A stretch of 64,000 bases of DNA from Rhynchopus sp. YZ270_cl-10. Lineage: Eukaryota. This document shows, one piece after another, positions 15,986 through 37,900 of this stretch (the stretch's first letter is position 1; every line of letters starts with the position of its first letter). The position numbers and the translations under genes are program-made. The notes below the pieces were generated by a model. That model did not search any database. It saw only the letters and a program-made list of their open reading frames with translations, and had not been told where the DNA came from. The stretch is from positions 248,001 to 312,000 of the forward strand of contig OZ037845.1 of assembly GCA_964035575.1 (NCBI GenBank), in the 5' to 3' direction.

Positions 15986-17692
15986 TTAGACACTGTACCG
16001 ATCATCCTCTGGGTCAGCATTGACTACATTGCCGCTCTGCTTCTGCATTGCGACACATGCCGAACCGAAGTGTCCGCCATGCTCGCGCAGGCTCTGAAGT
16101 GCTTGCCCACGGGAGATGTCAAACTCCTTCGCGAGCGTGACAACATGCGGCTTCCAGTCTGCAATGTACGGCTCGTCTGCGAGATACGTTGGGTCCGTGT
16201 GCGTGCCGTGCACATAGTACACAGGTGCGTCCCGTTCGCTTTCACGTGGCTCCTCGGTGTCCTTCCTCCTCACAATGGGGTTGACACTTTGCGGGCTAAA
16301 CCCATACGGCGATACGTACTCATGAGAGCTGCTCGATTGCGAGCTTGCATCAGAAGGGTCCGAGTCAACGTCCGCCGCAAGAGCAGACCGCTTCTTGCCC
16401 AGCATAGCCTCCAGACCGTGCATCTTCGCCCAGTCAAACTCCTCTGCTCGCGCCCGCTTCCACAATATGAACGTTAAACAGCACAGCAAACAGAGACCCG
16501 CGACCACGACACCAATCCACCACAACCCAATGGCCTCGTCGTCGATGGGCACCTCGGTTAGTGTTATGGCAGGGGTGATGGTGAACGTCTCTGAAAACGT
16601 TATGGTGCGGGTTTGAGTGACAGTGGGTGTGAGCGTGGCGGAGAGGGTAGGTGTGTTGCCTGTGAGCGTCAGGGTTGGTGTCGTTGTCTTTGTTGGTGTC
16701 GGTGGGGCGATGGGCGGCATGTACGCCTCTGGTGGCCACGGCCTGTCTAGAGTGTTCGCAAGCTTCTGACAGAGGTGGCGGTACTCCTGGCTGCACAGTG
16801 CGGGGCAGAGGTCTCCTGTGTTGGCACTGCAGTTTGTTGTCATATTCATCTGCGGCTCTGACCCTGCAATGAATGCGCAGGCACCCAGCGGGCTGCTGTC
16901 TCTGTTCGCAAACCACTTTGGCTGGTATGTGTCCAATGGGTCCAACCACTCCCACCTCTTCGTCCGTATCACGCCACCCTTTGACGCACTCACCCACGCA
17001 CCCACTACGTCACCTAGCAGCTCTTTTACGGCAGCAGCTTCGTCTGCGTCGAACATATAGGCGAGATCTGCTTTGGGGTTGCCACCTGTTCCGCGGCAGT
17101 TTGTGGCGATTCTTTGGACAGGGGTGGTGAAGAGTTTGAAGCACATTTGCGAGAAGAAGGTCCAGTCTACGTCAGTTACGTCACATGCGACACCCGAGGT
17201 GGATTTGTAGACACACACATAGGGCAGCTCACGGAGGCAGGACTCTTCGCATATGACGGGCGCGCCTAAAGCAGGGAAGAGCGGGTCGTCGTAGTGGCAG
17301 TCAACTGCAGTGGTGGCCAGACCGCCGCCCATAAAGGCACAGTGCTTGTCACCGCTGTCCACGTCTGGACGTGTTGCTGGCCACATCGTGGCGTCGACTG
17401 CAGTAGTCAGTCGGTCGTCCCACACCCACCCCTCCCGCGTGGTCATCTCCCGCATGCCCACCCAAAACTCCCCAAAGTGGTCGGCAAACCCACCCATATT
17501 GCTCTGCATCTGTGCGTTTTCCATTGCGTATAAGTTTGCATCAAGGCGAAAGCAGACCTCCGGTCCCCAAGGGCCCTTTTCAGTGGAGCGTAGTACACAG
17601 CGTGTCCCCCCGTCAAAGACCCAGGGGTCCTCGCAAGGCTCGCCGCAGAAGGCAAAAGGAAAGAGCAAGGAGGTGGCAACAATTCGGAGCAT
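15986..17692 (-). CDS. Type I membrane protein: two C-type lectin-like domains, Pro/Thr stalk, TM, cytoplasmic UBA-like domain
   Basis: Signal peptide MLRIVATSLLFPFAFCG from the ATG at 17692. CTLD hallmarks C..W....C, FWVG/AWVS, W.W.D, CAF, LPYVC. TM LWWIGVVVAGLCLLCCLTFILW. Confidence 0.8.
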   Translation of the reverse strand: MLRIVATSLLFPFAFCGEPCEDPWVFDGGTRCVLRSTEKGPWGPEVCFRLDANLYAMENAQMQSNMGGFADHFGEFWVGMREMTTREGWVWDDRLTTAVDATMWPATRPDVDSGDKHCAFMGGGLATTAVDCHYDDPLFPALGAPVICEESCLRELPYVCVYKSTSGVACDVTDVDWTFFSQMCFKLFTTPVQRIATNCRGTGGNPKADLAYMFDADEAAAVKELLGDVVGAWVSASKGGVIRTKRWEWLDPLDTYQPKWFANRDSSPLGACAFIAGSEPQMNMTTNCSANTGDLCPALCSQEYRHLCQKLANTLDRPWPPEAYMPPIAPPTPTKTTTPTLTLTGNTPTLSATLTPTVTQTRTITFSETFTITPAITLTEVPIDDEAIGLWWIGVVVAGLCLLCCLTFILWKRARAEEFDWAKMHGLEAMLGKKRSALAADVDSDPSDASSQSSSSHEYVSPYGFSPQSVNPIVRRKDTEEPRESERDAPVYYVHGTHTDPTYLADEPYIADWKPHVVTLAKEFDISRGQALQSLREHGGHFGSACVAMQKQSGNVVNADPEDDRYSV

Positions 17693-17762
17693 TGTGTGTA
17701 TGTGTGTGTGTGCTTCTGTTGTGTGGTGTTGGGGGTAAAGAGAAGGGCCAAACAAAAAATAT

Positions 17763-18687
17763 ATATCACCCATTCCATGAAATTCCGTATACTTTTGCAA
17801 AAAAGTCACTCAGAGAACCCAGATGCAAATTTTTTATCGTCCGACCCCGCATTTGATTCATTTTGACTCCCCGGATCTGAGAATATTTTTTTCAAAAAAA
17901 ATAAAAAAAAAATCCCATCCGAGGATGTGTGGGAGAGTTTTGGGTCCGGCGCTCCCAGTTATCTCGACAATTTCCTGGTCACAAAAACCCCCCAAAACAC
18001 CGCTAGTGTGAATTTCCGAGCTCAGCGCTTTTCATTAAAAAAAAAATCGAGAAGATTAGTGGAGTAGAAGTTGTCTACTTTTTTTACCATGGGTAATTTT
18101 GCACTATAGCTGTATATAGCAGGGCAAATTACCTTGGAAAATGGGGTGTTCGCCGCTGGTATACGGTAGTACCCTGGTCGCCTTCTGCGTCTACCCGTTG
18201 GTCGTACGACCCCGGAATTGCAAGATATTGCACTGCATCTTTCAAACGCGTGATTGGGCAATTTTTTGTTGACGAAAGCGTGGCCTTAAAATATAGAGGG
18301 ATTCCTCTGTAAAAGGGGCACCATAAGGCACTTCCTAGTAGGTACCTTCCGCCTAAGAACTGCCCAAAAAATAATAGACATCAACAGATGCATGAAAAAA
18401 ATCGTCCGACCCCGGAATTGAAAGATTTCGTACCCGATCTTCCAAAAAAAGAAAAAAAATATTTTTTTTGGGGACCTGGGCCCCTGTTAAAATTATGTGG
18501 CCACGGACGACATCGTTTGCGGAAATATGAAGTATTTTTTTGTTGTCGAAAATGCGCTAGTGTGAATTTCCGAGCTCGGCGCTTTCAATTAAAAAAAAAA
18601 TCGATAAGATTAGTGGAGTAGAAGTTGTCTAGTTTCTTTACCAAAAACAGGGGTTTTGTATACGGTTTTTCATGGAATGGGTGATAT
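17763..18687. mobile_element. Inverted-repeat-bounded element with internal direct repeats
   Basis: 30-nt inverted repeats at 17763-17792 and 18658-18687 (28/30 match); 77-nt direct repeat at 18001-18077 and 18555-18631; CGACCCCG motif three times. Confidence 0.6.
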
Positions 18688-19787
18688 TTTTCCCGGTATT
18701 TTGCCATTTATGTAGCTTTTTAATAGCATTGGAGCTTTTGAAGAAAAGGGGGATGGGAGAGAGCATTGTGGGTTGTGGAAGCGAAACAAATGAAATGCAT
18801 TCATTATTTCAAAGAAAAAAAGGAGGGAAAAAAAAGGGTTTGTTAAAAAGAGGAACTTCAGCGCTTGGGTACTGGGTACTCTGTTGCTGTAGTTAGTCTT
18901 TGAAACAGGAAGAACAAAACAAAAAGAATGCGTCATAAGTGCTTCTGTTGATCGTAAAACTAAAACAGAGAAGTTGAAAGTGCAAATGCCTCACCGTACA
19001 CCGGCGGACGCAGGCACTGGTAAAAAATGACCACAAAAAAGAAAATAAATAAAAAAGGAAGGAAGGATGCAATTCAAACAAAGAACAGGGTGTGCTGGAT
19101 CAGATAAAAGGGGGTGAGGAGATTTGAGAAGAAGACAATACAACTACAACTCTTGTGGAGGGGGTGGGGAGAGGCCCTAGCCCCTAAGAAAAAAAAAAAG
19201 ACAAAAAGACAAAAACTAATGCTAAAAATGGTGTTCCGGAACGGCGAAAAACTATGTTTTTTATTTTTTGATAATCTGTTGGAGTAGTGTAGCTGCCACG
19301 CAAGCAGTCCGCACTGTCCTTTTTTTTTTTGTTGCGCAGGGTTTTGAAGCACGTAGTCAAGAGAAAAAAGAAAAATTCGGAAAATACAATCAACGGGGGA
19401 TAAGGATATCTAACCCCTTTTGTCTATGTCTCCTTCATCTCGACGATGCTCTCCCGCTGCAAGAAAAAAAAAACAACAATTCACAATTTACATTTCAAAC
19501 ACATTTCTCTTCAAGAGAGAAGAATTTTTGGGAAAGTGAACCATGCATCGGCTGGTGTATTTGCAAAAACTCCTTTTGTAAATAACACACGCCAATTTCT
19601 ATAAGATCACCAAGCCCAACTAAGACGCTAAAACTACTGGATAATGTCTGCTGCCTTCAATTTTATGATTAAAAATTGAACCGAACAGCAAGGTTTTTGT
19701 GTCAAGCAAATATTTCATTTTCATTCTTTTCTAGACGAAAAGAAGGCAGAAAAAGAATGCGAAAAAAATGAAAAATAAAAAGTTTAT

Positions 19788-20358
19788 AAGATGAACCTAA
19801 GCCTCTCATGCTTAGTCATCTTGAAAAAAAAGGGGCTAAAAAAGAGTGTGGAAAACCCCTTTGAACCAATAAAAAAACAACAATGAGATGAGCACAAAAA
19901 AGCAAAGAAAAGAAAGGTTTATAAGACGAACCTAATCCTCTCTGTGCTTTAGTCACCTCGAAAGAAGAGAGAATCAATGAAAAAAGAAAAAGAACAAGGT
20001 GAAATAATACTCTCGTCGTACCCCCGCGTAGAGTATATCAGAATGCATCCTTACTGCCAAAAAACAAAGAAAAGTTTATGAGATGAACCTAAGTCTCTCG
20101 AACAAAAATAGCAAATAAAAAAAAAAAAACGCTCAAAAGGGAAAAGAGACAGTTAAAAAAGGGGGAACTGTCATGGGGAGAGAGAGTGATCAGTGTGAAG
20201 AGTGTTGTAACATAGTGACGTTGTGGCTTTGCTCTTTTGTAAAAAAAAAAATGAATGATTCTCACAAAATGAGTAGACAAACTTTAACGCCAACAAAAAA
20301 ATATAAAAAAAAATAGTTTGCAAGATGAACCTAAGCCTCTCTGTGCTTAGCCACCTTT
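19788..20358 (-). repeat. Cluster of four copies of dispersed hairpin repeat, module A (AAGATGAACCTAAGCCTCTCGTGCTTAGTCACCTT)
   Basis: Copies at about 19788, 19923, 20081 (half) and 20322. Further copies at about 460, 48749, 49003, 50492, 51390, 51979, 52239, 56724, 58628, 59077. Confidence 0.85.
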
Positions 20359-20632: not shown

Positions 20633-23600
20633 TTACACAACGTCATGTTGAATTTGCTCCTGACAGGGTTCTGTACTCCCGACTGGGGCTGTGTTGTTCT
20701 TGCTGCCCTGCTTCTTTGTGTACACCAGAAGACCAAGGACAACAAGCAGCAGAACCACAACGGCAACAACAAGAAGCACAATCATCACAACGTTGTCCTC
20801 GTTGTCCTTCTTGGGGACACTGCGCACTGTCGTGGCAGGCCCACACGAGTACTCTGTGACAATAACGTCTGAGTCGACCTTGGTCCACCGCATCTGAATG
20901 TTGGAGACATGGCTGCCGCCGTGCTTCTCAAAGAGAGCTGCGAAGAAGCGGCTCTCCATGCAGCCGTCAAAGTCGATCTTGGGTGTCGGCGTGCCGTCGA
21001 CGACGAACTGAACACCGTGCACCTCGTTTGTCTCTGGCATGCGTGCTGGGCATAGTGTCGGGGTGGTGCTGCTGCACAGACCGATGCTGTGGAAGGTGGT
21101 CTCGGTTGAGGTGGGCCCACGCAGGGCCACCAAGGCGCTCGCCTCGTTGCGTGCAAAGTCCGACACCTTGACCAGCATCGTCGAGTTCTCAACCTCGTCA
21201 GTCGTCCAGCAGACGTGGCTGCCGTTGTAGCGGCTTGTCCAGTCCTCCTCCCCGACCTGCATGGACAGCGTCGACACATCGACACCAGAGATTGTGTCCT
21301 CGAGGGCGAGGTGGATGCAGCCCTGCGAGTAGCTGCGCGTGTTGATCGTTGGCGGTGCAAAGTCCCACACAGCCTCGGCAGAGGTCGTGACGTTGAGCCC
21401 AAAGCGGTTGGCCGCAGTGCAGGTGATGCGGGTCGAAGGTGTCGCCTTCTTCTCAAAGGAGATGGACCCAGCCTCGGACGTCGTCACCACCTCTGCGATG
21501 GTCGTGCTCCCGTCGTCGTTCAGCACAGACAGCGTGCAGTTGTACAGCATCTCCGACTCTGCGTCCGCACACCCACCCCACGAAGCCGTGGCGTTGCGCC
21601 CCACCGTCACAAAGACACGCTCGCTAGAGCAGTCCTCCTCCCCGTCGACCTCGGAGCACATCTGTGTGAAGTTGTCCTTGCACACCGGCGGCGTCACATC
21701 CACACTCCCAAAGTCCGCAAGGGTGTTCCCCTCCGACAGCAGTGCCGACACCTCTGCGTCCGACAGCACGACAGACGTCGCTGTGCTGCACGCAGACACC
21801 TGGTTCGCCAGTGTGCAGCACACCTCTGCCCCCAGCACATCCCCGCCAGCGACCTCCAAGGGGAATGGGAACATGGTCGCCTCAATCTTCTCAGACTCGT
21901 CCGCAAGCCCGCCGTTCACTGTCAACGTAAAGCGGCAGTGCAGGAGCGGCACTGCTGTGTCCTCTTCAAGCCCAGAGCTCAGCGTCACACCAAGGCCAGG
22001 CTTCACACGCCCCTGCAGGGGTGCGCTCCCGAACCCGAACCTCGCCACCACGTCGGGCGAGTCCAGGGAGACCGTCGTCGTGTTGCAGACCTGGGTCGTC
22101 AGGCCTGCCTTGTTGTGCGCCGTGATGCACGTCACTGCGGGGCCCGCGGGGAACGTCGCTGGCAGCAGCATTTCGTACTGTGGTGTCTCTGTGTCGAGAC
22201 GCACTGTGCATGCGCCACCTTCCGCTGCCTCTGCAGACGCAGCAATGCAGATCACAAACCTGCTTACGTCTGTCTCGTCGTCTTCAAAGGTCGTGTTGAA
22301 ATAAACAGTCTGCCCCAGGCTCGGTGCTGCATACACCGGCACTGGCAGCCCCTCCACCTTCACCGGTGCAGTCAAGTCGTACTGGAACACCCCCAACAGA
22401 GCTGTGCTGCACTCCGTCAGACACACGTGTGCTGTCAAAAACACCTCCCCCAGCACAACTGTCGTCAGCTCCGCCTCGTAAACACCCTCCTCAGAGAGCG
22501 GCAGCCAGGTCACCGCAACAACATCCGACCCAGGTCCTGCCCGACCTGCAGAGAACCCCACAGAACGCACCGCAAACTCAGAGGAGATGCGGAACCGCAC
22601 AATGTTGTCCTTCTGTGTCAGGTATGTGATTGTGTAGTTCGCGTCCAGGCTCTCGTCCGTCACTGTGTCCACAAGGAGCACACCGTTGCGCACTGTCGGG
22701 ACATGGGCGTGCGACAGTGCGTCTGCAAGCACTGTCTCCTCGTTGTCGGTGTCGTTCTTCAGCATCTCAATAACGGGAACGTGGTCCACAGGGACCGACT
22801 GGAACGACGTCTCCCCCAGAACAGCAAACCCACCATGTGTCCTGAACTGCGCCACCACCTTGTACACCCCAGACTCGAAAGGCTCCGCAAACTCAGCAAC
22901 AAAGGAGCGTGTCCCATCCGCAGCGCCCTCCTTCGTCCCCTCGGTGTCCACAGCGATGTTCCTCTCCTCCGCAACAGTCTCCCCAACACTGTTCTGCACA
23001 GTCACGTCGAGGCTCCCCGGGTACGCAGTGTTGATCGCCACACGCACCGTCTGCCCTGCAACGTCCGGCGTCACGTCGTACGTCTTCACACCAAGGAGAA
23101 GCGGCTGGGTCACCTCGTTCACAAGAAGCCCAGCAGCAACCTCACCCGACAGACGTGCCCCCCTGCACTGTGCGACTGCCTGCAGGGTTCCTTCAGGGAG
23201 GGTTGCTGTTGCTGTCGCGTTCTCACTGTCGGTGGCATTGTCGTTCTTCCTGAGCGCAACACAGACAACGTCGAGAAGCGTGTCGTTCTTTGCAGTAAAA
23301 GTCGTTGTCACTGCGCCAGCACACTGTGCTGCAGTCTGGTCAGCATTCTGCGGCTCGCACGCAACGTCCGGTGTGACGACAACGTCGCAGGAGAGCGTCT
23401 CGCCGCTGGCAGGTGCCAGGCCGCTGACGTCGACGCAGACCTCCCCCGCAGAGACGTGGTGCACAGACTCGTAGCTGCTGCCCGCAGTGAAGTTGAGTGC
23501 ATGCACAACCTCCGTCCGACCCTCCGCAAACACAAAGGACACCACGTCCGAGGTGAACGTCAGCCCAAACCCGTAGTTGTCCGTCGCCACCACGCGCACC

Positions 23601-26600
23601 GCGTACTGCACAGCGTTCTCCCACGCAGTGAAGCCCGCAGGCAGCGCCTTCCCATCCGCGTCCTCAACCTCCGTTGCGTAGGTCACCCAGTCGTGCGTCT
23701 CGTGCGACACACACAGCGTCGCATGTGCCCACAGCGTCTTCCCGTCCTCAAGGATCGCACGCCCCTCCTCACACCCAAGCTCAACCGCAAATGCGGGGAT
23801 CGCCGTTGCCACACGCACAACCTGTTCCACAGAGGACACCAACCCAACCATGTCGACTGCCGTCAGGGAGACCACGTAAAGCCCGTCTGCAAGCGGCTTC
23901 AGGCAGTGCTGCGACTGTGCGTTTGTCGCCACGGCTGCTGTCTCCACAACCGTTCCAATACTGCCACTCCCACTGCCCTGTTGGCGCACAGTCAGCTCTG
24001 CAGAGCGCACGTTGTGGTCGTCCGTCGCCGTCGTGTCCACGCACAGGTCAGAGCTGTTCGCAGCCCCCTCTGCAGGCAGACCCGCAACTGCCACCAGCAC
24101 CGCCGGGTGCACAGAGTCCGGTGACACACGGTAGCGTGTCGTGCGCTCCTGCCCACTCGCCACACGCAGCGACACAAGCCCGACCCACACGTCCCCGTCA
24201 CCACCGTTGCCACGCGACTCGTTTCCAAAGCACAGCGTTGTCGTGTTTGTCCCTTCTGGTGCTGCTGCACCAGTAGTGCCTGGGAGTGCAGCACCCGCCG
24301 CATCCTCAACACGTGCACGCAGGGTGACATCCCCCAGGTCGTGGGTCGCATTCCACTGCACGCACCACCCGTTCGGCGCAAAGGCGTTCACAAGCATCAC
24401 CGACACATCCTCGTCCGAGACGAAGTCAGTCATCGCAACGTCGTTGACGGCAACAGACAGCGCCGCAGGGGTGGTGTCAACAATCTTCGACTGCGACACC
24501 TTCGCAGACAGGCCTGCGCCGTTCTCGACAAACGCAGTCACGGTGAGCTTCTGTGCGTGCGAGGTCGCCACACGCGCAAAGTACGTCTTCGCGAAGAAGC
24601 CCTCACGCACCACAGCAACACCGACCTGCGAGAACAGCACCCCCTCAGCACCACCGTCAATCGTCAGCGTGATGTCCACCGCATCACTCGAGGGCTCGTC
24701 CCCAGACACAAACACCGTGCACGTCACGTTCTCGTCCTCGCTGCAGGCATACCCCCTCGAGGCACCGCACCCGCAGTCCACGTCGACTGCCGCCTTCGGT
24801 GGCGTCGTGTCCACATCCGCCGTCGCAACAGGCAGCTCGCACGTCGGCAGGCCATCCTTCAGCACACGCACCAAGAGGAACACCTGCGTGTCCTCGCTCA
24901 GCTTCAGCTGCGTCACGTTCGTCGAGTTCGAGAAGTCCAGCGTCTCAGCAAACTGCGTCTGTGTCGTCGCAACCACACTGCAGTCAAAGGGCGCCGTCCC
25001 GAGACAGTACTCAAGCGTGCAGCCGCCAGAAGACACACAGTCATAGGCAGGGATGTCCACTGTCGCAGCCAAGCTCGCCACGTCGGGGTAGGCACGCTGT
25101 GTGAAGGCAACCTCGCCAGAGCACTGGCTGTTCAGAACAGAGGGCGGGGACGCGGCAGAGACATAGGTCCCAGTCCCGTCGGAGCAGGTCACGCGGGACA
25201 CGACCGAGATGCCTTCCTCCGACGCAGAGTCGGTCAGGTTCACCGTAATGCTGTGCTGGCCGGCGAGCAGTGCGCCTGTGTGGTACACCACCGAGGTGTT
25301 CTCCGCGTCGAGGACCGCAAGCGAGCAGGCGTACTGCAGCTCCTCGAAGCGGCTTGGGATCGGGCACGTCCCGTCGTGGTCGACGACCGCCTGCGGCACG
25401 CCCCACACCGCGAGGTACGTGTTGTGCACAGCGCCACCACCTACCACCGCCAGTCCCGACATTGTCCCGTCCACACCCAGCCCTGCCGCATCCGACGCAC
25501 GCACCACCATGCCCGCACCACCAAAGGTAAGCACGTCTGCGTCCACAGCAGGGTGCCCACGCACACCGCCAAAGCGGCCCGTCCCGCACCTTGTCTCCTC
25601 AGCATCATCACCGCGCAGCACCGCGTCCAGCGTGCGCCCGCCGATGCAGTTCCCCACAGTCTGCACGTCCGAGTGCCCGGGTGACGTGAAGAGCACCTCA
25701 CGCAGGGGCAGCGACCGCACCAGGGCCGAGCAGTAGCCAGTGTCGCCGATGATGCGTCCCCTCCCGCTCACGGGTGGCAGGCCCCAGGCTGTGTCCTGGC
25801 ACATCCTGCGTGTTGCTGTTGCTGTCGTTGTGGTGTTCGCACTAATGACCGCAAGCAGGACACGTTCACCCTCACACATCACCTCAACAGCGGTCGTGGC
25901 ACTGGTGCGCACAAGGCGGTGGCCGCTGTCGCTACAGCGGCGCATTGCCTCCTCTGCAGCAGCTCTCGTCAGCACCGTCGTTGCGCCATACACACCCGTC
26001 ACCACGACCTTGTCGCTCAGTGCAGTAGTAGCAGCAGTCGCATTAGCACGACGCACACACGGCAACAACGTCACAGTGAGTCTGTCCTGCGGCACCACAG
26101 CGTCGTGCGCATAGCGTCCGTTCACAACGTCCCCAGCACTCAGCTGCGGCGGCGTCCACACAACAATGCGGCCAGACTCGCGCTGCACATTCCCTGCCGC
26201 ATCCGTCGCTGCGTAGAAGAACTGCACGTTCCCACTGAAGTTCCCGGTCTCGAACGTGAAGACCGTGTTGTTCGCCGCGTCCTGCACCGAGGTCACCGAG
26301 AGCAGCTCCCCCCCGAGGAACGCCGTCAGCGTCTCCGTTGCTGTGTCGTCCGAGACACGCCCAACGGACACAGTCACCACGTTCCCTGCGTGCACCACAA
26401 CAGGGTGGGTCACGTTGTTTGCTGGCGGGGTGAGGTCGACGGTGAAGCGGTGCGAGGTGAGGCAGGTCTTCAGGTTGCCTCCGGTTGCGGTGAAGGCAAG
26501 GGTGTACTCTGCTCCGTCGTCGAGAGGCGTCGCTGCGTCCACGGGGAGGCAGTGCAGGGCACCGAGGACAGCAGGGCCCGTCGCAAGCGTCGCACCAAAT

Positions 26601-29600
26601 GCGTCAGAGAGCGTCGCCTGCGCACCGTGCACACCACACCCCTCCGCCGTCGCAATGAAGCACACCTTGCTCGCAAAGCGCGACACCTCCCTCCGCCCCG
26701 TCGCATCCCCAACATACACACCACACTTCGGTGCCAGCGCCGTCACCCGCACCACATTCCCCAGAGTAAACTCAGACACCTGTCCCAGCTGTGTTGCAGC
26801 AACCCCAACACGCAGTCCCACCTCGGCATGCGACGCAGGCATCGAAAAGCACTGCTGCGCGTCAAATGTAACTGCTTCTGAGGTTGAAGCCAAGGCTGCC
26901 TCCACCGCAGTTTCACCATCAAACAGACGCATGCTCAGTGTCCGTGTCGGCCCAAACCCAAAGTCTTCGGGCTCTGTCAGTGTCACGCAGACCTGCCCCG
27001 AAGGCAGCACACAGGCCGGGTTCGCAACCCTCTCAGGTGCCTGTGTCGCAAAGGTGAAGAAGCTGCCCAGAGGCACACGAGCTGAGCTCCCTGCCTTCCC
27101 CTTCACAGTTGCCTCTGCGTAGTTGCGTCCGACAGGCAGGTCTGCTGCAGTGTCTCCCACAACTACAGAGGCAGTGAAGCGCATGTCACCACCACCAGCA
27201 ATAGGCGTAAGCACACCACGTCCTGTGATGAGACTCCCGTTCGCAAGCTTCACAAAGAACACTGGCTCCGCCTCAAGACCACCAAAGGGAACGTTCCCAA
27301 CACGCGCAGAGAAGCAGAGACGACGCAGGTCAGTCTGAAAGGTGGCGTCATCACCACAGGTCGCAGTCGCCTCAGTCACCTGCGGGACACGGAAGTCAGT
27401 GCGCACACACATGCTGTCCTCAGAAGAGAGCCCAGTAACGCCGACAGTCGTGACAGTCATGTTGTAGGCCTCGCCGTCGGGAAGCTCGCGTGCGACGTCC
27501 CTGATGCAGAAGCGGCGCCCCAGCTGCCCAGACGCAGACGCAACCACGTCCCCGCTGCTGTTCGTCACAGCAACAGTTGTGTTGGCAGAGAAACGCGACT
27601 CGGTCCACCGCACACACAGCAGCGCCGCGTCCGTACGGTACTGACAGCCGTCCGCATCCTTCGGGACGTCGGCAGTCGTGTCAAGCACAGGCACCGGCGG
27701 CCCCTGCACAACATACATCTGCCGCCCAGCCTGCGTCGCAGCACGCCCAGTCGACCCCTCCGCACTCATCTCAACCGTCACCCACCCGTCCGAACAGCCC
27801 ACCGTCGGGACATCCAAGGTCGGGACCGTGCTGCACGTCGTCGCCCCACAGGCACTCCCGTCCGCACCCAGCATGCGCCCGCAGTACTTTGTCACAGGTG
27901 TGTTCGACCCCGGCCACTGCTTCGTCCGCATCGCACTCGAGGCTCCACCCTCAACAAAGGTCGCACTCGAGCCAAGGGCAACCTGCGGCATCGCGCGTGG
28001 TGCCTCGGGCGTCGCTGTCGGGAACTCACGCTTGAAGAGCATCAGTTGGCGCGACTTTGCAGAGAACCGCAGGATCGTGAAGCGGTGCGTCTTGAAGCTC
28101 ACCCGCACGTAGAAGAACCCAATCTTCACCTGAATGTACGCCACAAACGCGTTCACCTCAATCGCAAACGGCACAAGCTCCAGCGGCACAGACAGACTCG
28201 TTGCCAGCGGGAAGCTGCTGAAGTCCACCCCAGCCGTCACAGGGATCGTCACGTCCATCACCACACCACGGATCTCCACCCCGACCTTGGCAATAATCAG
28301 CGAGATCGACGCCTGCGCCGTTACTAGCAGACGCACGTTCGGCCCAAGCCCGGCAGTCAGCTGCTTCTCGGGGAGGTTCAGCCCGACAGACCAGGTCGCC
28401 CCAATCTCGAGCGTCGCCTCCGCACTCAGCTCCAGACAGAAGAACACCACCAGGATGCAGGTCTGCACGCGCGCAAGCAGGATCCGCTTCCCGGGGATGT
28501 CGTTCGTCACAGACAGCTCCGCTAGCGCACTCGCCTCGTGCGCTGAGATCACAGGTCTGTCGATAATCGACTGCCCGGCGAACTCGAACGACAGTCTGTT
28601 CAGCGTCTCCTGCGTCACCTCAAAGGGGAGGTCGATCCCAACCGACTTCCCAAAGTCGAGCACCAGTGTGTAGTGGTCTGCCGTCGCCCCGTCTGCGTAG
28701 CGCACCTTTGCCGCCCAGTTCCCGTCTTCGCCCCTCGCACTCCGCTCAAAGGTACGGTACGCCGACACGTCCCCGAACGCAGCACAGGCAGACCTCGCAG
28801 ACGCGTGCGCCACAACTGCCGCAAGCTCAAAGTTATGCGTGAAGAACGTCTCCACCGCCTCCTCGTCCAGCTCACCCGCCTCCACACCGTCCTCACTCCG
28901 CGCAAAGTTCAGAATATGCACCATCATGCAGGTCTGCTCCCAGGGCGCGTACGTCACATACGACACAGCACTGTCCCGCGTCAGCCAAAACGCTGCCTCA
29001 GCATGGAACATCGCCTCCGCAACAGACGGCTTCGCACCCCCCTTCGCCTGGTACGACCGTGGGATCCCCTCAATCGTCAGGTCAGACCCGGTCCGGTGTG
29101 CAGTCCCGTGCAGGGGCTTTGCCTCCGACGGGTACGACCCGCCCTGTGGCGGGGATGCCGCACCGATGCGTGGCAGCGACCCGGAGCCACGTGCACGCCA
29201 GAAGTCGCAGAGCTGCTGTGCAATTGCCTCCACCACGTCCTGTGCTTCGGAGCGCAGGTGTGTCTCGCGTGCGCCTGACGCAAGGTCCAGGCAGTCTGCC
29301 CCAGAGGCCCGCTGCCACATTGCTTTCGATGATTTTTTCAGGAACGCCTGCAGCTTCGGACTCAGTGTCGTGCTCTGCTCCTCCACAGAGCGCTTCCCCT
29401 GCACAATTGCCTTGAACAGCTTCACTGCCTGCACATAGTCCTTCGTTGTCGCCTTCACCGAGCTGCACGAAGAAGAAATATCAAACCCACGCGTCTTCAG
29501 CTGTGCGCAGATCTGTGCCTCAGTGAGGGTCTCTGTTTTGCTTGGGGTCTCAAATCCAGACTTCTTCTTTGCAGCCAGTACGTTGCTCTCTCTTTCGTCT

Positions 29601-31577
29601 CCTTCCGTCAGCGCGGTAATCACGTCAATCGCCTCCCCCAGTGGCGGTGCCGACAGGGAGAGGAACTTGCCAAGGCGGAAGTCTGCGTCAAAGATCGTGA
29701 ACGTGAAGCCAAGCACCTCAAGCTCTGCAAAGGCGTGCGCCACAGCCTTCGCTTCAAACTCAAAGAACCCGCCAAGGATGTCTGCCGCAAGCTTCGCGAA
29801 GACACCGTATTCGAAGCCCATTGTCACAACAATAGGGCCGCCACCAAGCTTCTTCTCCTTCGACTTCAACGGCAAACCAAAAGTCTTGTCGAAGCTCAGC
29901 AGACTCTCCTGCACATCTGCAGTCCGCCCACAGCGTGCTCCAGCCAGCAGACGCACCAGCTTCTTCTCTGCTTCGTCCACGTGTCCTCTTCTTGTTGTTG
30001 CTGTTGTTGTTGTAGTCACATTCCCTGCAAGCATCCCAGCCTCTCTGCACCCAAAGTCGTGTCTTTTGTGCAGAAGCGACAGTGCAGTTGCGCGTGCATC
30101 CGGGTGTGGGTGGGTCACTGCGTGGTGTGCCAGTGTGTCGCGCACAACAGCGTTCTTTGTGTCGCGCGACAGAACACGCAGGGCCGCACCACAACCAAGC
30201 CCACCACTGCTGCACTGTGCGTCCGCGAACTGCGCTGCGTGGTCGCGCACCGTGTGCATCGGCAGGCTGCGCAGCACGTCGACCCCAGCACGGTGTGGGC
30301 CCTTCAGTACTGCAAGCAGCGTGTCTGCGTGCGCCTGCTGGTCTGCCGCGGCAGAGTGCTTCGCAATCACCGCACCGACCAGGTGTGGCTCCTCCAGTTT
30401 TGTTGTTGTTGTCCCCGCAGCTGTGCTCGCGTGCTCCTCCACAGCGCTCAGCAGTGCACGCGACAGCGACGGCACACCCTCACCCTCCGCATGCGCAGCC
30501 ATCCCCTGCCACACCACCGCCGACAACACGTTCACATCCGCACACCGCACCACAATGCACTGCTCCAGCCTCGCCGTTGCCTCCACTGTCCCTGCCAAGG
30601 CAAGTGCATCAAGAACACGCCGCATGTGGCGAGTGTGCTGTTGTTTGCGTTCATCCTCGTCCTCATCCTCGTGTTGGTGCTCCACACGAGAGAGGTACTC
30701 CTCCTCTTCAATCACAACCACAACCTCCTCCCAACGGTGCGTCATCAGTTCCATCAAAGCGTGCACTGCTTCCAGCGAGTCTGACATTCCCGTGACTAGG
30801 TGGCGCACACGTGGCGCAAGGCTGTCCTCCTCAGGCTCCGCAGCGCTGCGGTGGGCGTGCGTGTGGATCTGTGCTTTCGACGCAGCTTCCGTGAGGGTCA
30901 CGCGTGTCAGCAGGGTTGAGGTTGCTGCTGCTGTACGTGCAGCTGTCGCAGGGGTCGCACGTTCACGCGACAGCGTCGCACATGTTCTGCTGACCATCCC
31001 GTGTCCGTGGTCCTCGTGCGTCGTTGCGTCCGTGCAGATCTCCAGTGTTTTCAGTCCGTGAGCGTCATGTGTCCCACTGAGGGTGTGGCTGTGCTGCGAA
31101 ACCTTGCCCTGTGCGTGCTGCATCTCCTCCTTTGCAGTGCCGTTCCCAAAGCTGTACCACATCGTCAGCGGGCGCAGCATCAGCATCACCTCAAGGGCTT
31201 CAGGTGCTGTGCACTCTGCGCTGTGTCTGCGGAAGGCCGGACCAGCAGGCGAGTCTTCATCGCACACGTGCAGAAGGCATTTGTTGAGGACCGCCGTGTC
31301 CACCTGCTGCGGCATCGAACCTGCCACGCCTTCGAACAGAGAGCGCACGTGCACTGCATGGCAGGACGCCCCAACAGCAGTCAGGTCAAAGTCCGCCCAG
31401 CGCACTCCTCCAGACACCGTCGTTGCGGAGTGGTGCTTCACCTCAGTCTTGCTCTTGATACGCATTCTGTAGTCGACCTCGCTGTGCAGGGGGTGGTCAC
31501 GGTGCGTCACCTCTGCTCCCGACACTGAGGTAGCTCCTGTGCAGAGCACGCACACCAACGCTGCGAGCCACATGTGG

Positions 31578-31608
<31 letters not shown>

Positions 31609-34402
31609 TGTGTGTTGTCATCTTTGCGGCTCTTGTTGTTGTTGTCACTGCCGTGAACAGAACCTGAAGACCACACACAACCACAGTCGCATGAAGCACA
31701 ATGTACAGCGCAAAGACACCCAGCACCACAAGCCCTTCCCATGCAGTCGGGACGCGTGGTGCTGCACGAAGGTCGGTTTCCCCGCCACCAAAGGAAGAGG
31801 CACACCAGAGGAGGCCGTTTGCCCACCAGTGCAGGTGGTCGAGGCCCGCCTCTTGCGGAGAGTCAATGTCGCCGGTGAAGGTCGTCAGGAAGTGGAAGGG
31901 GAGGTACACGAGGTCCATCACCTCTGCCGAGAAGTCGTAGCTGCTGTGTTCCGAGATCAGTGTCCACGCACCCTTCGCGTCACTGCGGATGAGAAGTGTC
32001 GAGGTGGGTGTCAGGTGCGAGACAAACCCGTCCACAGTCTCTGCACCAATGTCCGTCACAGGGGACGCAACCAACACCTCCTCACCTTCACCCTCACCCT
32101 CGTGGACAAGCAGGACGTCACCCAGAGCCACCTCCTGCGCACGCTTCCGGCCGTCAGTTGTGTACACAAAGTGGTCTGGCGACACAACCAGCAGACCTGC
32201 ACCATGGCGCAGACGCGTCATGTCAATAGGGGTTGCATGCGAGTGGTGGTGCACACCGTGCATCGTCGACCATGTGCACACACCCTGCGCAGTGCAGGTA
32301 CGCAGTTCGTCTGCCGACGTCACGTCCGCTGCCATCTTCGGCCCATTCCGTGTCAGAAGCTCTGCCGTGAGAGGGTAGCAGCCAGAAGTTGACGGGATAC
32401 CCAAATCAACATTTATAGGGGGGCAATTGGCAGGCATTGTGCAGGAACGGGTGCTCGCGCCGCCACAGAAGGAACTCGCGACGGGCACGCTGTCACACTG
32501 TCTAGTGCAGCCCATCGTCTGCGTTCCGCCACGACCGACGCAGGTGGGCCTGCAGGTCCCTGGGCGGTCTGCTTTGTAGCCACCTTCGAAGAAGGTACAT
32601 CCGCGACGGAGGGTCAGCTCGGCCTCAGAGGTGCCGCATTGCGCCAGGTTGAAGGGGGTTTTGGGGAGCGTCGTCTCGCATGTGTCCACACAGAAGGCTT
32701 GGCGGTGCTGCGAGCCCGCCCCGCAGATGTTGTCGCAGATGCCGTACTCGGTGTGCGTCACACCAAAGACACGACGCTGGCAGGGGAGCTGCGGCTTCTC
32801 CAGGCCCGCGCAGTGTGTCTCCGCCACAGTCAGCCCCGAGCACGCAGCACGGCACACCATCTGCGACACACCCTCGCACGACGAAGGAGACGTCGCGCCA
32901 GGTGCATCTAGACACACCTCCGTTGCAGTCCACTCGTGCCACTCCCCAACACAGGCCTGCACTGCACGCGGCTGTGTCTCGGGGCTGCACTCGTCCAGAC
33001 CAGTCACCGCCAGGGTGCACACATCGCCACATTGCACACTGCGTGTCTGGACCCCCTCCACACCGCACTTCTTCTGTACAGACGTCGTGCACTCCGAGAA
33101 CTCCCCAACCGGCAGCCAGTCAATCGTCTGCGGCGTGCACGCCACCTCCGTTGTGGGACGGTCTGCCTCAGAGCACAGCGTCGACACCGTCCCGTCGCAG
33201 AGCAGGCATGTCGCCGCCTGTGTCTGCGTGCCACTGCAGGTGCAGTTTCCGGCCGTGATGTGCCAGTCTGCCGGCAGCGAGGTGCACGCCACCGTTTCCG
33301 TCTCGTCTGCCGTCGCGCACGTGTTCCCGCCGTACATCGGCGTGGGGTTGGAGCAGGTGCGTGTGCGTGACATCGTCCCCGACCCGCACGCATTGCTGCA
33401 GGCCCCGAAGGTACCGAACTCACTCAGACCTCCGTGCTGTGCAGGGGGGAACACAAGGAACACCTGCCCACGCACAACAACCACCCCACCGTGCTCAGTA
33501 CTGCACGCCACAGCAGGTGGGTTCGGCGAGGACAGTGGTGTCAACGTCGCAAGCGTCTGCCCACCCGCGAGCAACACATCGTCGCCGATCTTCGCTGTAC
33601 GCAGCTCTGCGCCCTTTGCAGTGTACGTCACTGTCACATCCTTGCTGTCCGAGGATGTGGATGTAGATACAGATGCTGCGTACATTCCACTCGAAAGACC
33701 ACACAGCGACCATGTTGCTGCTGCCTCATCAACACAGGTCAGTCCCACACCAAGGAGGTGCTCCAACCCCTCGCAGGACATCCCCAGGCGCGTCGACGTC
33801 ACACCACCGGCAACCTCCTCAAGCACCGTCTCCTCGCCACTCTGTGCAGCAACGTGCCCGGCCACCATGGCAACCGAGTCTGCACTCAGCTGTCTCATTT
33901 CGTCGGTTGTGTTGGCAGTCCCGGAGCAGACGTCTGAGTAGAGGCTGCGTTCGATGTGGTCGTCGAGGTGTGCTGTCGCGAAGGCGCCTTCGTAAGCAGA
34001 AAAGGCCGTCACCGGGGCTGCCGTACGGAAGGCAGTGAAGGCAACCTCAGTCAGCACACAGTCCGCAGAGATGGCCACAGTGTGCACACCTGCAGCAGAG
34101 GTCGCTGCCATACGCGCACCACCACCCTCGCAGCCAGCAAGACACTGCACCTTCGCACCAAACATCTCTGCACCAGAGGACACAGCACCGCACTGTGTCC
34201 ACCCGCCTGCCGTCTTGTGGTACGCAGCCAGCGTCAGCAGCGGCGCACGCCCCACAACAAGGAACTCCCCGCAGTACGCTGCAGAAGAGGCCGTAGGTGC
34301 GGCACCTGGCTCAAGGTCGAACACCACCGCAGGGGTTGTGTCCGCACACACGCATCCGAGTGAGAGGAGCAGCCCCATCGCGACTGCTGCAGGTTGCAGC
34401 AT
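20633..34402 (-). CDS. Giant (~4589 aa) surface polyprotein: SP, TSP1 repeats, Hog (Hint+SRR), TM, second SP, vitellogenin-like lipid-transfer region, Ig/FN3-like repeats, TM
   Basis: Uninterrupted ORF. ATG at 34402 (MLQPAAVAMGLLLSLGCVCA) follows a polypyrimidine tract and AG. TSP1 motif CSNACGSGTMSRTRTC; Hint motifs G|CYP...LVVSPDH; recurring D.T(P/A)P and A.N.AGL motifs; C-terminal TM at about 20720-20793. Confidence 0.9.
31790..32380 (-). other. Hedgehog-type Hog autoprocessing domain (Hint module plus sterol recognition region) within the giant ORF
   Basis: Gly|Cys junction (Cys codon 32380-32378); B-block LVVSPDHFVY; RAQEVALGDVL; GFVSHLTPTSTLLI; SRR-like ...VYLPFHFL...HWWANGLL (Hh: AFAPLRL...HWY..LL). 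Confidence 0.88.
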
Positions 34403-35876: not shown

Positions 35877-36512
35877 TCAGGGTTGGAAGGCTGTGTAGAC
35901 GCCCTGCGCAGACGCGTAGTACTGTTTCACCTTGGGGAGGTTTGCAATCATAGCCCTGTGTGCAGCAAGGTTCCTGTAAGGTAGCACTGCTTCCGGCGTG
36001 ATTCCGCTGAAAAACCTCGTCCTCAGCACGTTAATGGATGTGAAGAGCGCCAGGTCCGCCACTGTCAGGGAGTCACCCACAGCGTACTTCTTCCCCGCAA
36101 GACGTGAGTCCAGGAAGGCAAGCCATTTCTCGATGTCGCCGCCCTTTGCCATGACTGACGCAGGGGTCATTCCCTTGGTTTTCTCCATGTACAGTTTTTG
36201 CAGGACGGAGAAGATCTCCCAGATATACTCGATCGTCTCGTCCACACGCAGTGCTGTGCGTGCATCTGTCGGGTACAGCTTCGCTAGCCTTGCAACGTAG
36301 CGCAGCTGTGCGTCACTCTGCGCCACCAGCTCCTCGTTCACGTACAAAAGCGGCAGCTGCTGTGGGGTTACCTTCGGCTTCAAACCCGCAACCCACCGAC
36401 CGTACTCCAATTGATTGTTTTCCAGCACCACACCACCCATGTGCGCTGTAAGACGGATTGACTCAGGCTTTCCAGGGAAGTCGAAGGACACTAGCCTCAG
36501 GGTGGGTGCCAT
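35877..36512 (-). CDS. GST: Glutathione S-transferase (sigma-like), copy 1, with Tyr->Ser at the catalytic position
   Basis: MAPTLRLVSFDFPGKPE..., QLPLL, QSDAQLRY, GDSLTVADL. Confidence 0.92.
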   Translation of the reverse strand: MAPTLRLVSFDFPGKPESIRLTAHMGGVVLENNQLEYGRWVAGLKPKVTPQQLPLLYVNEELVAQSDAQLRYVARLAKLYPTDARTALRVDETIEYIWEIFSVLQKLYMEKTKGMTPASVMAKGGDIEKWLAFLDSRLAGKKYAVGDSLTVADLALFTSINVLRTRFFSGITPEAVLPYRNLAAHRAMIANLPKVKQYYASAQGVYTAFQP

Positions 36513-37267
36513 GTTTGGTAAGAAGACGAATATACCTGTAAAAAGAGGTGAACATTGATAGAATATTCGTACTGTGGACACAAAGGTGGGGGCAGGAAAG
36601 GGATTCATTTTATGAGCAGCAAAGAAGGTGTGCGACAAACACACAAGGTGAAAATGAAGAAAGAAAGAAAGAAAGAAACAGAGCAAGTTGGCGAGGTAAG
36701 TTGTGTAGTACGGAACACAGAAAAAGAAAGTTGTGTTGCCAATGTGCAGGTATCTCGTGGACACAGACATGTGACAATACAAATAAAAATGCGGAGAATA
36801 AAAGCTCAAAAAACTCAATATCTCCAAGAGCAACAGTCCGCCCATATAAGCAAATGCATGGGTCATGCAATTGCAACATGAGTGGGTTAAGAGTAAGGGA
36901 ACAGAAACACACATCAGGGTCGGAGCACCACACGAAGGCAACACAAAGCCAAAGTGACAGAAATGTTGCGCAGTGTGGGCGGAGAGTGTGGATGGCAGAT
37001 ATGTTGGACATCCCTTCCCCTTCTTGTGTCTCGTGTCTCTCAAACTGAACAAACGAGAATCGAAAACGAATGAAGAACGAAACCCCCTCAGCCACCTTAA
37101 AAGAAGACGCGGAGATGAATATGCGTCTCGTTGTAGCAAAGCCGAGAGTGCAGATGAGTCAGGGATGCAGCACTGACTTACCACACCTCAGGAGTGGTGC
37201 GTTTGGTTGTTTCTCTCTTTTTTGATAAAATTGAAAACGCGAACGCCGTTATCAAACCAAAGACAAC

Positions 37268-37900
37268 TCAAGGCTGGAAGGCAGTACGCACGCCATTTGC
37301 AGACGCGTAGTACTGCCTCACCCTCGGGTGGTTTGCAATCACAGCTCTATGTGCCGCAAGGTTCCTGTAAGGCCGCAGCGAGTGTGCAGAGATCCCGCTG
37401 AAGTACCCTGACCTGAGTAGGTTCACGGATATGAAGAGCGCCAGGTCTGCCGAGGTCAGGGTGTTACCCACAGCGTACTTCTTCCCCGCAAGACGTGAGT
37501 CCAGGAAGGCAAGCCACTTCTCCATGTCGCCGCCCCTTGCCATGGCTGCAGCAGGGGTCACTCCAGTAGTGTTGTTGGCAAAAACTTTTTGCAGAGTGTT
37601 GAAGATCTCCCAGGCGTAGTCGGTAAGCTCGTCCACACGCAGTGCTGTGCGTGCGTCTCTGGGGTACAGATTTGCGAGCTTTGCAACGTAGCGCAGCTGT
37701 GCGTCACTCTGCGCTACCACCTGCCCGTTCACGTACAAAAGCGGCAGCTGCTGTGGGGCCACCTTCGCCTTCAATGCGCCCCATCGACCGTACCCAATTA
37801 TGTCGTCCTCAAGCGCAAGACCACCCACAAAAGCTGTCAGACGGATAATCTCAGGCTTTCCAGGGAAGTCGAAGTACACAAGCCTCAGGGTCGGTGCCAT
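37268..37900 (-). CDS. GST: Glutathione S-transferase (sigma-like), copy 2
   Basis: MAPTLRLVYFDFPGKPE..., QLPLL, QSDAQLRY, GNTLTSADL. Confidence 0.93.
   Translation of the reverse strand: MAPTLRLVYFDFPGKPEIIRLTAFVGGLALEDDIIGYGRWGALKAKVAPQQLPLLYVNGQVVAQSDAQLRYVAKLANLYPRDARTALRVDELTDYAWEIFNTLQKVFANNTTGVTPAAAMARGGDMEKWLAFLDSRLAGKKYAVGNTLTSADLALFISVNLLRSGYFSGISAHSLRPYRNLAAHRAVIANHPRVRQYYASANGVRTAFQP

What the first reader, a model, noticed from the sequence alone, without database searches (positions are those of the whole stretch)
20633..34402. Giant self-processing polyprotein coupling a Hedgehog-like sterol-ligation module to a lipoprotein-like surface protein
Seen in one 13.8-kb intronless ORF, in order: SP; ~300-aa beta-rich region; a run of TSP1-like repeats (about 33436-32420); G|C Hint and SRR; TM (about 31732-31645); second SP (ATG at 31573); vitellogenin-like region; ~2300 aa of Ig-like repeats; TM and short tail. 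Known: Hog domains cleave at Gly|Cys and attach sterol to the released N-terminal part, and are normally C-terminal. Drosophila Hh travels on lipophorin, an apoB/vitellogenin-family protein. Inference: one precursor gives (i) a sterol-tagged TSP1 adhesin or ligand, (ii) a membrane-tethered spent Hog domain, and (iii) a very large stalked lipid-binding protein that could carry, display or receive product (i). That would be a self-contained Hedgehog-like export system in a unicellular euglenozoan. I know of no described protein with this architecture.
Basis: partly seen in the sequence, partly recalled or inferred. Interest (0 to 1): 0.93.

Follow-up and report, generated by a model that had tools for sequence, protein, structure and literature searches.

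The report
Hedgehog-type self-cutting diplonemid surface polyprotein
One giant gene, whose domain order recurs in a predicted protein of the marine flagellate Diplonema papillatum, carries a Hedgehog-type domain in mid-protein rather than at its end, followed by a likely second export signal, so it would be cut into a possibly lipid-tagged adhesion piece and a huge membrane-anchored protein with a likely lipid-carrier-like head.

Summary
The 4,589-aa ORF is real and open across the junction; contigs from two public runs bridge it with frame-keeping indels only. Two further 95-97% identical copies are also fused. A D. papillatum protein model (KAJ9462395.1, 4,917 aa, 24-28% identical in BLAST segments) has the same order: signal, beta-rich region, TSP1 repeats, Hint+SRR (Pfam Hint above cut-off), hydrophobic junction ending in a signal-like segment, the same beta/helix/sheet module, stalk, TM. 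Chance read-through is therefore unlikely.

The Hog domain keeps Cys1, SxxH, His where Hedgehog has D46, and SRR motifs, but all four proteins lack the C143 cysteine that Hedgehog needs. Self-cleavage is likely; sterol ligation is open. The vitellogenin-like call is indirect: one beta-sheet is homologous to that of a Vitellogenin_N protein, but the N-terminal part did not match. No RNA or protein data were available, so an internal trans-splice start is not excluded. The 'Hedgehog-on-lipoprotein' export system is untested. I found no description of an internal, membrane-tethered Hog domain in a polyprotein. New variant of a known kind; interest 0.78.

The parts
20633..34402 (-). Whole ORF, 4,589 aa (P0001)
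   Evidence: fused copies P0002 (4,565 aa) and P0003 (4,561 aa)
34343..34402 (-). N-terminal signal peptide, aa 1-20 (judged by hydropathy and the -3/-1 rule; no SignalP available)
33434..34342 (-). Beta-rich N-terminal region, aa 21-323; no family hit; homologous to the same region of P0005
   Evidence: no hit; z 6.9, 0 of 200 shuffles
32417..33433 (-). Cys-rich TSP1-type repeats, about aa 324-662
   Evidence: PDB thrombospondin-1 E 7.8e-15 with profile A1
32378..32383 (-). Predicted autocleavage site G674|C675; the 19 residues up to G674 are hypervariable between copies, G|C itself is invariant
   Evidence: 13 of 20 columns variable; S|C in P0005
31937..32380 (-). Hint domain, about aa 675-822: Cys1, His triplet at positions 44-46, S741-P-D-H744; no Cys at the C143 position
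   Evidence: 4 of 148 columns variable among copies
31793..31936 (-). Sterol-recognition-like region, about aa 823-870 (YLP and HWW motifs; FLP and HWY in P0005)
   Evidence: Pfam model covered to position 206 of 213; Drosophila Hh 6td6 residues 250-459 matched; 1 of 48 columns variable
31652..31732 (-). TM1, aa 891-917, predicted stop-transfer anchor of the Hog fragment
   Evidence: Kyte-Doolittle peak 2.63; codon use in the ORF's normal range
31574..31651 (-). Short Thr/Ser-rich linker with Arg/Lys, predicted cytosolic; triplet-repeat DNA; length differs between copies, frame kept
   Evidence: 18 of 25 columns variable
31514..31573 (-). Internal signal-peptide-like segment, M944 to G962/A963
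   Evidence: M944 kept in 3 of 3 copies, M928 in 1 of 3
28013..31513 (-). Putative large-lipid-transfer-like module, aa 964-2130: beta-rich start, helical region, sheet 1 (about 1500-1600), insertion, sheet 2 (about 1935-2125)
   Evidence: indirect
20813..28012 (-). Beta-rich stalk, aa 2131-4530, weak bacterial-Ig-like hits, enriched in N-glycosylation sequons
   Evidence: 32 sequons against 13.9 expected
20636..20791 (-). C-terminal TM (aa 4538 to about 4562) and short basic cytosolic tail
   Evidence: KD peak 3.84

Best explanation
The gene encodes, in one open frame, a TSP1-repeat module, an internal Hedgehog-type Hint+SRR domain, a hydrophobic junction and a giant membrane-anchored protein; it is likely translated as one secretory polyprotein that would be cut into three pieces by likely Hint self-cleavage at G674|C675 and by predicted signal-peptidase cleavage near A963. 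Steps: (1) shown: domain order and open frame here, the same order in a D. papillatum model. (2) Inferred, about 0.8: the first signal opens translocation, TM1 stops it, and the internal signal restarts it and is cut, which puts the 382-kDa C-terminal product (lipid-transfer-like head on a glycosylated stalk, type I anchor) outside the cell. (3) Inferred, about 0.65: Cys675 makes a thioester (N-to-S shift) and frees the 67-kDa beta/TSP1 fragment, leaving a 31-kDa Hog-TM stub. (4) Inferred, about 0.45 given step 3: the thioester is resolved by a membrane sterol or similar lipid, with His in place of D46 as base and TM1 holding the SRR at the luminal membrane face; otherwise by water. Likely purpose: delivering a releasable or lipid-anchored adhesin and a stalked, probably lipid-binding surface protein together in fixed ratio, for attachment or prey handling.
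For: Open frame. Three copies 95-97% identical, all fused, with linkers of three lengths. Contigs of run X5 (30903-32383) and X2 (31551-32101) bridge the junction; the 7 indel rows in 30900-33000 are multiples of 3 or pair up to 3. P0005 (KAJ9462395.1): Hint E 1.6e-13, 51.1 bits, above cut-off, after TSP1 repeats; 5 collinear BLAST segments along P0001; 7 of 8 modules homologous by shuffle test, z 4.6-39. Profile A1 matches Drosophila Hh 6td6 residues 250-459 (E 5.1e-8) and 6tyy (E 2.7e-4); ESM Atlas first hits are Hint clusters at 0.91 with 176 shared features. Hint, SRR and the LLT-like module vary least among copies (2.7%, 2.1%, 3.4% of columns, against about 8% for TSP1 and stalk), and G|C is invariant next to a 65% variable stretch. 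D46H Hedgehog still autoprocesses (PMC12054796, passages). Stalk sequon excess 32 vs 13.9 fits a luminal passage, which after TM1 needs a second signal; P0005 also has a signal-like segment directly before the same module.
Against: No Cys between Hint positions 35 and 192 in P0001-3, and none near the matching place in P0005, while C143A and C143D abolish Hedgehog autoprocessing in cells (PMC12054796). P0001's own Hint score is below Pfam's cut-off. The junction is the one module not clearly homologous between P0001 and P0005 (z 1.2, 26 of 200 shuffles; p about 0.01 with other boundaries); it is 223 aa with about six hydrophobic segments in P0005 against 92 aa with two here. D. papillatum models are often wrong (125 of 319 inspected, PMC10161547 section 6), and 4 of 5 D. 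papillatum relatives seen (P0006, P0007, P0008, P0017) lack the TSP1-Hog part as modelled. The DNA before M944 has the highest T-rich window of all 65 internal ATGs tested (0.50, shared with M928; real gene starts 0.30-0.73) and two AG sites, so an internal splice acceptor is possible. Junction substitutions are 3 synonymous to 3 non-synonymous among those listed. The LLT N-terminal part did not match P0011's Vitellogenin_N region (hhalign probability 0.02).
Confidence: 0.58

Rival explanations
1. Polyprotein with a non-cleaving Hint: the N-terminal half stays whole as a type I membrane adhesin (beta region, TSP1, Hog, TM1); only the internal signal is cut, giving two surface proteins.
For: C143 equivalent absent in 4 of 4 proteins and required in Hedgehog (PMC12054796); TM1 already provides an anchor, so a lipid tag could be redundant.
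Against: Cys1, SxxH and the His at position 44-46 are kept across 24-28% diverged proteins; G|C is invariant beside a hypervariable stretch. Many protist Hog domains also replace the motif-J Cys (PMC2362128 section 9), so its loss does not single this one out as dead, though their activity was not tested there.
Confidence: 0.2
2. Dual expression: the fused mRNA exists, but much or most of the large protein is made from a second mRNA created by spliced-leader addition at an AG just upstream of M944.
For: T-rich window and two AGs within about 100 nt upstream of M944 and a C/A-rich stretch like this genome's 5' UTRs; M944 kept in 3 of 3 copies; SL trans-splicing marks 5' ends in diplonemids (PMC10161547); several D. 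papillatum models begin inside the large module.
Against: T-richness is expected from TM codons; GC stays at 0.55 against 0.37-0.55 before real starts; the signal-like segment in P0005 before the module has no Met. Not exclusive of the best explanation.
Confidence: 0.14
3. Artefact: two neighbouring genes whose spacer happens to be stop-free here and was mis-fused in the D. papillatum annotation.
For: 6.4% of intergenic 90-codon windows are stop-free; junction homology is weak; annotation error rate is high; linker indels sit in triplet repeats, which keep frame by themselves.
Against: The first half has no stop before M944 in any of 3 copies or in the bridging contigs; TM1 and the internal signal vary no more than flanking coding DNA (8.5%, 4.8%); both species continue past the SRR with a shared GG.TDL.A motif into a TM; two independent open junctions would be needed.
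Confidence: 0.06
4. The large product is not a lipid carrier but a generic helical-repeat plus beta-sheet adhesin head.
Against: Sheet 2 is homologous (hhalign 99.2%, E 1.5e-19) to the sheet that follows Vitellogenin_N (E 1.9e-28) in Pyxidicula P0011; P0012 and P0013 give weak MTP lipid-binding hits over that sheet (E 2.8e-4, 0.081); the order beta, helix, sheet, insertion, sheet is the same; all ten best Atlas hits share that family or clan.
Confidence: 0.33

Closest known systems
Hedgehog C-terminal autoprocessing domain (Hint+SRR; Drosophila Hh, PDB 6td6, 6tyy; Pfam PF01079)
   Same: G|C (S|C) site, Cys1, (S/T)xxH, general-base position, SRR-like tail; secreted N-terminal cargo
   Different: Internal, followed by a TM and 3,600 more residues; His for D46; no C143; cargo is TSP1 repeats, not Hedge
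Protist and nematode Hog proteins (Burglin 2008, PMC2362128; abstract, sections 9 and 16, passages)
   Same: Signal peptide, Cys-rich lineage-specific N-terminus, Hog domain; motif-J Cys often replaced
   Different: In the sections read, the Hog domain follows the secreted N-terminus and nothing downstream is described; no euglenozoan is listed; no polyprotein
Uncharacterised LLT-like giants of protists and chytrids (Pyxidicula P0011; Spizellomyces SPPG_08216, P0014/P0020)
   Same: Homologous beta-sheet; similar module order; followed by long extracellular repeat arrays
   Different: Their module sits at the N-terminus; no Hint or TSP1 hit in P0011 or P0020; their Vitellogenin_N region could not be aligned to the diplonemid module
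Lipoprotein-associated Hedgehog release (Palm et al. 2013, PMC3595218; abstract only)
   Same: A possibly sterol-tagged ligand and a large-lipid-transfer-like protein in one system
   Different: There, separate genes and soluble particles; here one ORF and a membrane-anchored stalked protein; no interaction shown
Viral envelope polyproteins cut at internal signal peptides (bunyavirus, flavivirus; recalled, seen as search listing only)
   Same: TM, short cytosolic linker, internal signal, next ectodomain
   Different: A cellular gene, with an autoprocessing domain added

Membership tests
Hog domain (Hint+SRR) | Profile match over Hint and SRR | tested here: met
   P0005 51.1 bits, above cut-off; P0001 25.9 bits, below cut-off, positions 10-206 of 213; A1 vs 6td6 E 5.1e-8
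Hog domain (Hint+SRR) | Cys1 nucleophile after a small residue | tested here: met
   G|C in 3 copies, S|C in P0005
Hog domain (Hint+SRR) | Block B TxxH | tested here: met
   SPDH at positions 67-70; SKDH in P0005; Ser for Thr
Hedgehog-type cholesterolysis domain | General base D46 | tested here: inconclusive
   His triplet at 44-46, HH in P0005; D46H is active in SHH. Register set by residue count and recalled motif; no tool alignment to Hh was displayed
Hedgehog-type cholesterolysis domain | Second cysteine C143 (motif J) | tested here: not met
   No Cys in that region in 4 of 4 proteins, in any register
Hedgehog-type cholesterolysis domain | SRR motifs K and L | tested here: met
   YLP/HWW and FLP/HWY; the match to 6td6 runs to residue 459. 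Motif wording recalled
Hedgehog-type cholesterolysis domain | Sterol esterification of the released fragment | not testable with these tools
   needs biochemistry
Hedgehog proteins | Hedge N-terminal signalling domain and C-terminal Hog | tested here: not met
   TSP1 repeats instead; Hog internal
Large lipid transfer proteins | Vitellogenin_N (PF01347) match | tested here: not met
   No hit in P0001, P0005, P0006, P0007, P0017; no profile match to P0011's region
Large lipid transfer proteins | Lipid-cavity beta-sheets after the helical domain | tested here: inconclusive
   Sheet 2 homologous to that of P0011 (E 1.5e-19); sheet 1 weak (E 0.019-0.66 in 4 comparisons, each single-target match at the expected place)
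Large lipid transfer proteins | Fold match to lipovitellin, MTP or ApoB | tested here: inconclusive
TSP1-repeat proteins | PF00090 match | tested here: met
   26.8 bits, cut-off 21.6
Internal-signal polyprotein | Cleavage by signal peptidase at the internal signal | not testable with these tools
   Sequence pattern and topology only

The most novel reading that the evidence does not exclude
Diplonemids encode a self-contained Hedgehog-like export system in one ORF: a membrane-tethered Hog domain, working without C143, esterifies a TSP1 ligand to sterol, and the co-translated lipoprotein-like head takes the sterol tail into its cavity and displays the ligand at the tip of a 2,400-residue stalk. 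This would be a unicellular counterpart of Hedgehog riding on lipophorin.
Probability: 0.12. Interest if true: 0.93.

Novelty: new variant of a known kind. Interest (0 to 1): 0.78.

Why it matters
In the literature I read, Hog domains follow their secreted cargo and end the protein. An internal, TM-tethered Hog domain in a cellular polyprotein, present in two deeply diverged proteins of probable diplonemids, would widen what the module does. It makes two open questions testable in a genetically tractable protist (D. papillatum): whether protist Hog domains without C143 cleave and add sterol, and whether the pairing of sterol-tagged ligands with large-lipid-transfer proteins exists outside animals. 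It also points to an unannotated family of giant surface proteins in an abundant marine group (the D. papillatum model is labelled only 'Coadhesin').

Tried and rejected
No whole genome is held. No RNA holder listed among 8 runs; this says nothing on expression. Both AlphaFold jobs were single-sequence and poor (pLDDT 40.2 and 37.5); their Foldseek searches gave no match at E 0.001 and are uninformative; lipovitellin and MTP do not appear among the 50 VIA rows, which excludes nothing. Single-sequence PDB searches with the Hog region found no Hedgehog, only inteins at E about 0.8. Two attempts to display a Hedgehog alignment failed through misalignment. Word-based homologue searches: region 660-1500 near length, 1 hit of 1,340 candidates; region 320-920 shorter, 1 unrelated SCO-spondin of 7,993; P0005 region 660-1260 shorter, only P0006 of 7,993. 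Both metagenome scans found nothing. NCBIfam and PHROGs gave nothing useful. The P0005 junction has no Pfam hit at E 1; a by-eye likeness to PrsW or rhomboid motifs (recalled) was dropped. The P. papillatum subcellular proteomics supplement (PMC12697944; 4 files searched, main table cut when stored) holds none of four paralog tags and no 'Coadhesin'; the locus tag of P0005 is unknown, so it could not be looked up. An in-frame intron at the junction was rejected: no intron of this genome's type, and the one GT..AG candidate (41 nt) lies in the linker that differs between copies. One indel cluster in run X4 at 23950-23956 sums to 5 in the rows shown, but 46 rows were hidden: unresolved. No complex prediction was run, as a lipid-mediated contact would not be tested by it. 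Earlier findings: none by sequence or in this genome.
Full report
Observation. The ORF at 20633-34402 (minus strand) is open for 4,589 codons. All long ORFs of the window lie on this strand, and the SAM-synthetase array carries short GT-AG, C/A-rich introns. My scan found 7 such introns in the window and none in this ORF. The best four non-self hits among 1.84 billion representatives are Diplonema papillatum proteins, so the organism is probably a diplonemid (inference). Pfam finds TSP1 repeats above cut-off and, on the isolated segment, Hint at aa 672-866 (E 8.6e-6, 25.9 bits, cut-off 29.7, model positions 10-206 of 213). Hydropathy shows a TM from aa 891, a signal-like segment from M944 (nt 31573) and a TM from aa 4538.

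Is the fusion real? One open junction is weak evidence: 767 of 12,040 intergenic 90-codon windows are stop-free. Three further lines matter. First, two more copies (P0002, P0003; 95-97% identical, other ENA contigs) are fused, with linkers of different length. Contig depths are compatible with about three near-identical copies, though the tool warns that depth is no copy number. Second, contigs of runs X5 (30903-32383) and X2 (31551-32101) bridge the junction, and the 7 indel rows in 30900-33000 keep the frame. Of 40 substitutions listed there (31 more hidden) I classified 31, leaving out 9 rows in the gapped stretch at 32385-32403: 18 synonymous and 13 not; in the junction 3 and 3. Third, P0005 (KAJ9462395.1, 'Coadhesin', 4,917 aa) has TSP1 repeats and then Hint at aa 675-878 (51.1 bits, above cut-off), five collinear BLAST segments of 24-28% identity, and 7 of 8 modules homologous in shuffle tests (z 4.6-39). 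It was found with the downstream module as query, so its Hint was not selected for. Against this: the junction itself is not clearly homologous (z 1.2; p about 0.01); it is longer in P0005, with about six hydrophobic segments; D. papillatum models are often inaccurate (125 of 319; PMC10161547 section 6); and four other D. papillatum relatives lack the Hog part as modelled. P0006 joins the beta region directly to the downstream module, P0007 and P0017 start inside it, and P0008 is a 327-aa fragment. Their DNA could not be inspected.

The Hog domain. Profile A1 (P0001, P0003, P0005) matches Drosophila Hedgehog 6td6 residues 250-459 (E 5.1e-8) and 6tyy (E 2.7e-4), and the Atlas gives Hint clusters at 0.91. 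Hedgehog's active site is C1, D46, T69, H72, C143; D46H still autoprocesses, C143A and C143D do not (PMC12054796, passages); the SRR is needed for sterol recognition (PMC13738340, passages). Here Cys675 is C1, a His triplet lies at 44-46, SPDH at 67-70, and YLP and HWW follow (HWY in P0005), but no cysteine lies near position 143 in any of 4 proteins. The register of D46 rests on counting and a recalled motif. Replacement of that Cys is common in protist Hog domains (PMC2362128 section 9), whose activity was not tested there. Hint and SRR vary least among the three copies (4 of 148 and 1 of 48 columns), while the 20 columns ending at G674 are 65% variable and G|C is fixed. I read this as an active cleavage site (about 0.65), with sterol transfer open (about 0.45 given cleavage). 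It works like a Hog domain; it fails one defining feature of Hedgehog-type cholesterolysis.

Topology. Signal 1 in, TM1 out, a short linker with Arg/Lys, signal 2 in, C-terminal TM with basic tail. The stalk has 32 N-glycosylation sequons against 13.9 expected, which fits passage through the ER and requires a second insertion signal if the protein is made in one piece. P0005 has a signal-like segment just before the same module; my count of six hydrophobic segments would keep the parity but several are weak. No signal-peptide predictor was available. An internal trans-splice acceptor is not excluded: the 200 nt before M944 hold the most T-rich window among 65 internal ATGs and two AGs, although TM codons explain T-richness.

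The downstream module. No direct family or structure hit. Sheet 2 (about aa 1965-2125) is homologous to the sheet that follows a Vitellogenin_N domain (E 1.9e-28) in Pyxidicula P0011 (hhalign 99.2%, E 1.5e-19); P0012 and P0013 have weak MTP lipid-binding hits over it; Spizellomyces P0020 has Vitellogenin_N at E 0.14. Sheet 1 aligns weakly at the expected place (E 0.019-0.66). The N-terminal beta and helical parts did not match (probability 0.02). Atlas hits are Vitellogenin_N or HEAT clusters at 0.77-0.80, a lead only. The fold models were unusable; ApoB appeared at rank 35 among generic helical repeats. I put a large-lipid-transfer-like fold at about 0.65 and do not file it as a member. The stalk is probably Ig-like on weak hits.

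Mechanism. Most likely one precursor gives a 67-kDa beta/TSP1 fragment, free or lipid-tagged; a 31-kDa Hog-TM stub; and a 382-kDa stalked type I surface protein (masses). TM1 would hold the SRR at the membrane where sterol lies. The likely benefit is joint, stoichiometric delivery of an adhesin and a lipid-binding surface protein. All processing steps are inferred. Rivals: dead Hint (0.2), dual expression by internal trans-splicing (0.14, not exclusive), chance read-through (0.06).

Novelty. Searches: 'diplonemid, Hint, hedgehog' returned 0 papers. In one search, none of the 25 listed of 152 papers held both a Hint/Hog term and a Diplonema/Euglenozoa term. Searches listed no internal Hog domain or cellular Hog polyprotein (listings only, apart from PMC2362128). 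The D. papillatum genome paper has no 'hedgehog' or 'Hint' in its main text; its supplements were not searched, and most subscription journals are outside the library. Earlier notes of this scan describe internal-signal polyproteins in a marine protist and terminal Hog domains on viral and bacterial fibres; they are unchecked leads. Verdict: observation confirmed, interpretation partly supported, new variant of a known kind, interest 0.78; most novel reading 0.12 probability, 0.93 if true.

Noticed in passing
window 4633-15408 (-): Five tandem S-adenosylmethionine synthetase genes, 96-99% identical, with short GT-AG C/A-rich introns (56-72 nt); in the last copy the first intron is enlarged to about 430 nt by an insertion.
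   Followed up: partly
window 35877-39225 (-): Three tandem glutathione S-transferase genes (70-80% identical DNA) with a duplicated 636-nt spacer.
   Followed up: no
window about 19760-20100 and 20295-20357: A short dispersed repeat with extremely high contig depth and many A-rich loose ends in the runs laid; probably an abundant interspersed or 3' UTR element.
   Followed up: no
window 46077-47807 (-): 576-aa protein with a Schlafen/AlbA_2 domain (PF04326, E 2.5e-7).
   Followed up: no
window 15986-17773 (-) and 52619-55129 (-): Two more mucin-stalked surface proteins: a C-type lectin and a WSC-domain protein.
   Followed up: no
window 60478-63999 (-): Protein with RCC1-like repeats followed by more than one kinase domain, possibly cut by the window end.
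   Followed up: no
P0005 aa 881-1103: The D. papillatum junction looks like a small multi-pass membrane domain (about six hydrophobic segments) with no Pfam hit; the window's protein has only two segments. P0005 also has Asn near the place of Hedgehog C143, as inteins have before their C-terminal cut (recalled).
   Followed up: partly
P0006 (DIPPA_10038): The model joins the N-terminal beta region directly to the downstream module, skipping TSP1, Hog and junction: a natural Hog-less variant or a mis-predicted intron.
   Followed up: no
P0011, P0014, P0016, P0019, P0020: Unannotated proteins of an amoeba, chytrids and others with an LLT-like head, most followed by EGF, FN3, cadherin-like or laminin-G arrays; an apparently little-described eukaryotic group.
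   Followed up: partly
window 32383-32437 (-): The last 19 residues before the G|C site differ strongly between the three copies, so the released fragments would have variable C-termini.
   Followed up: partly
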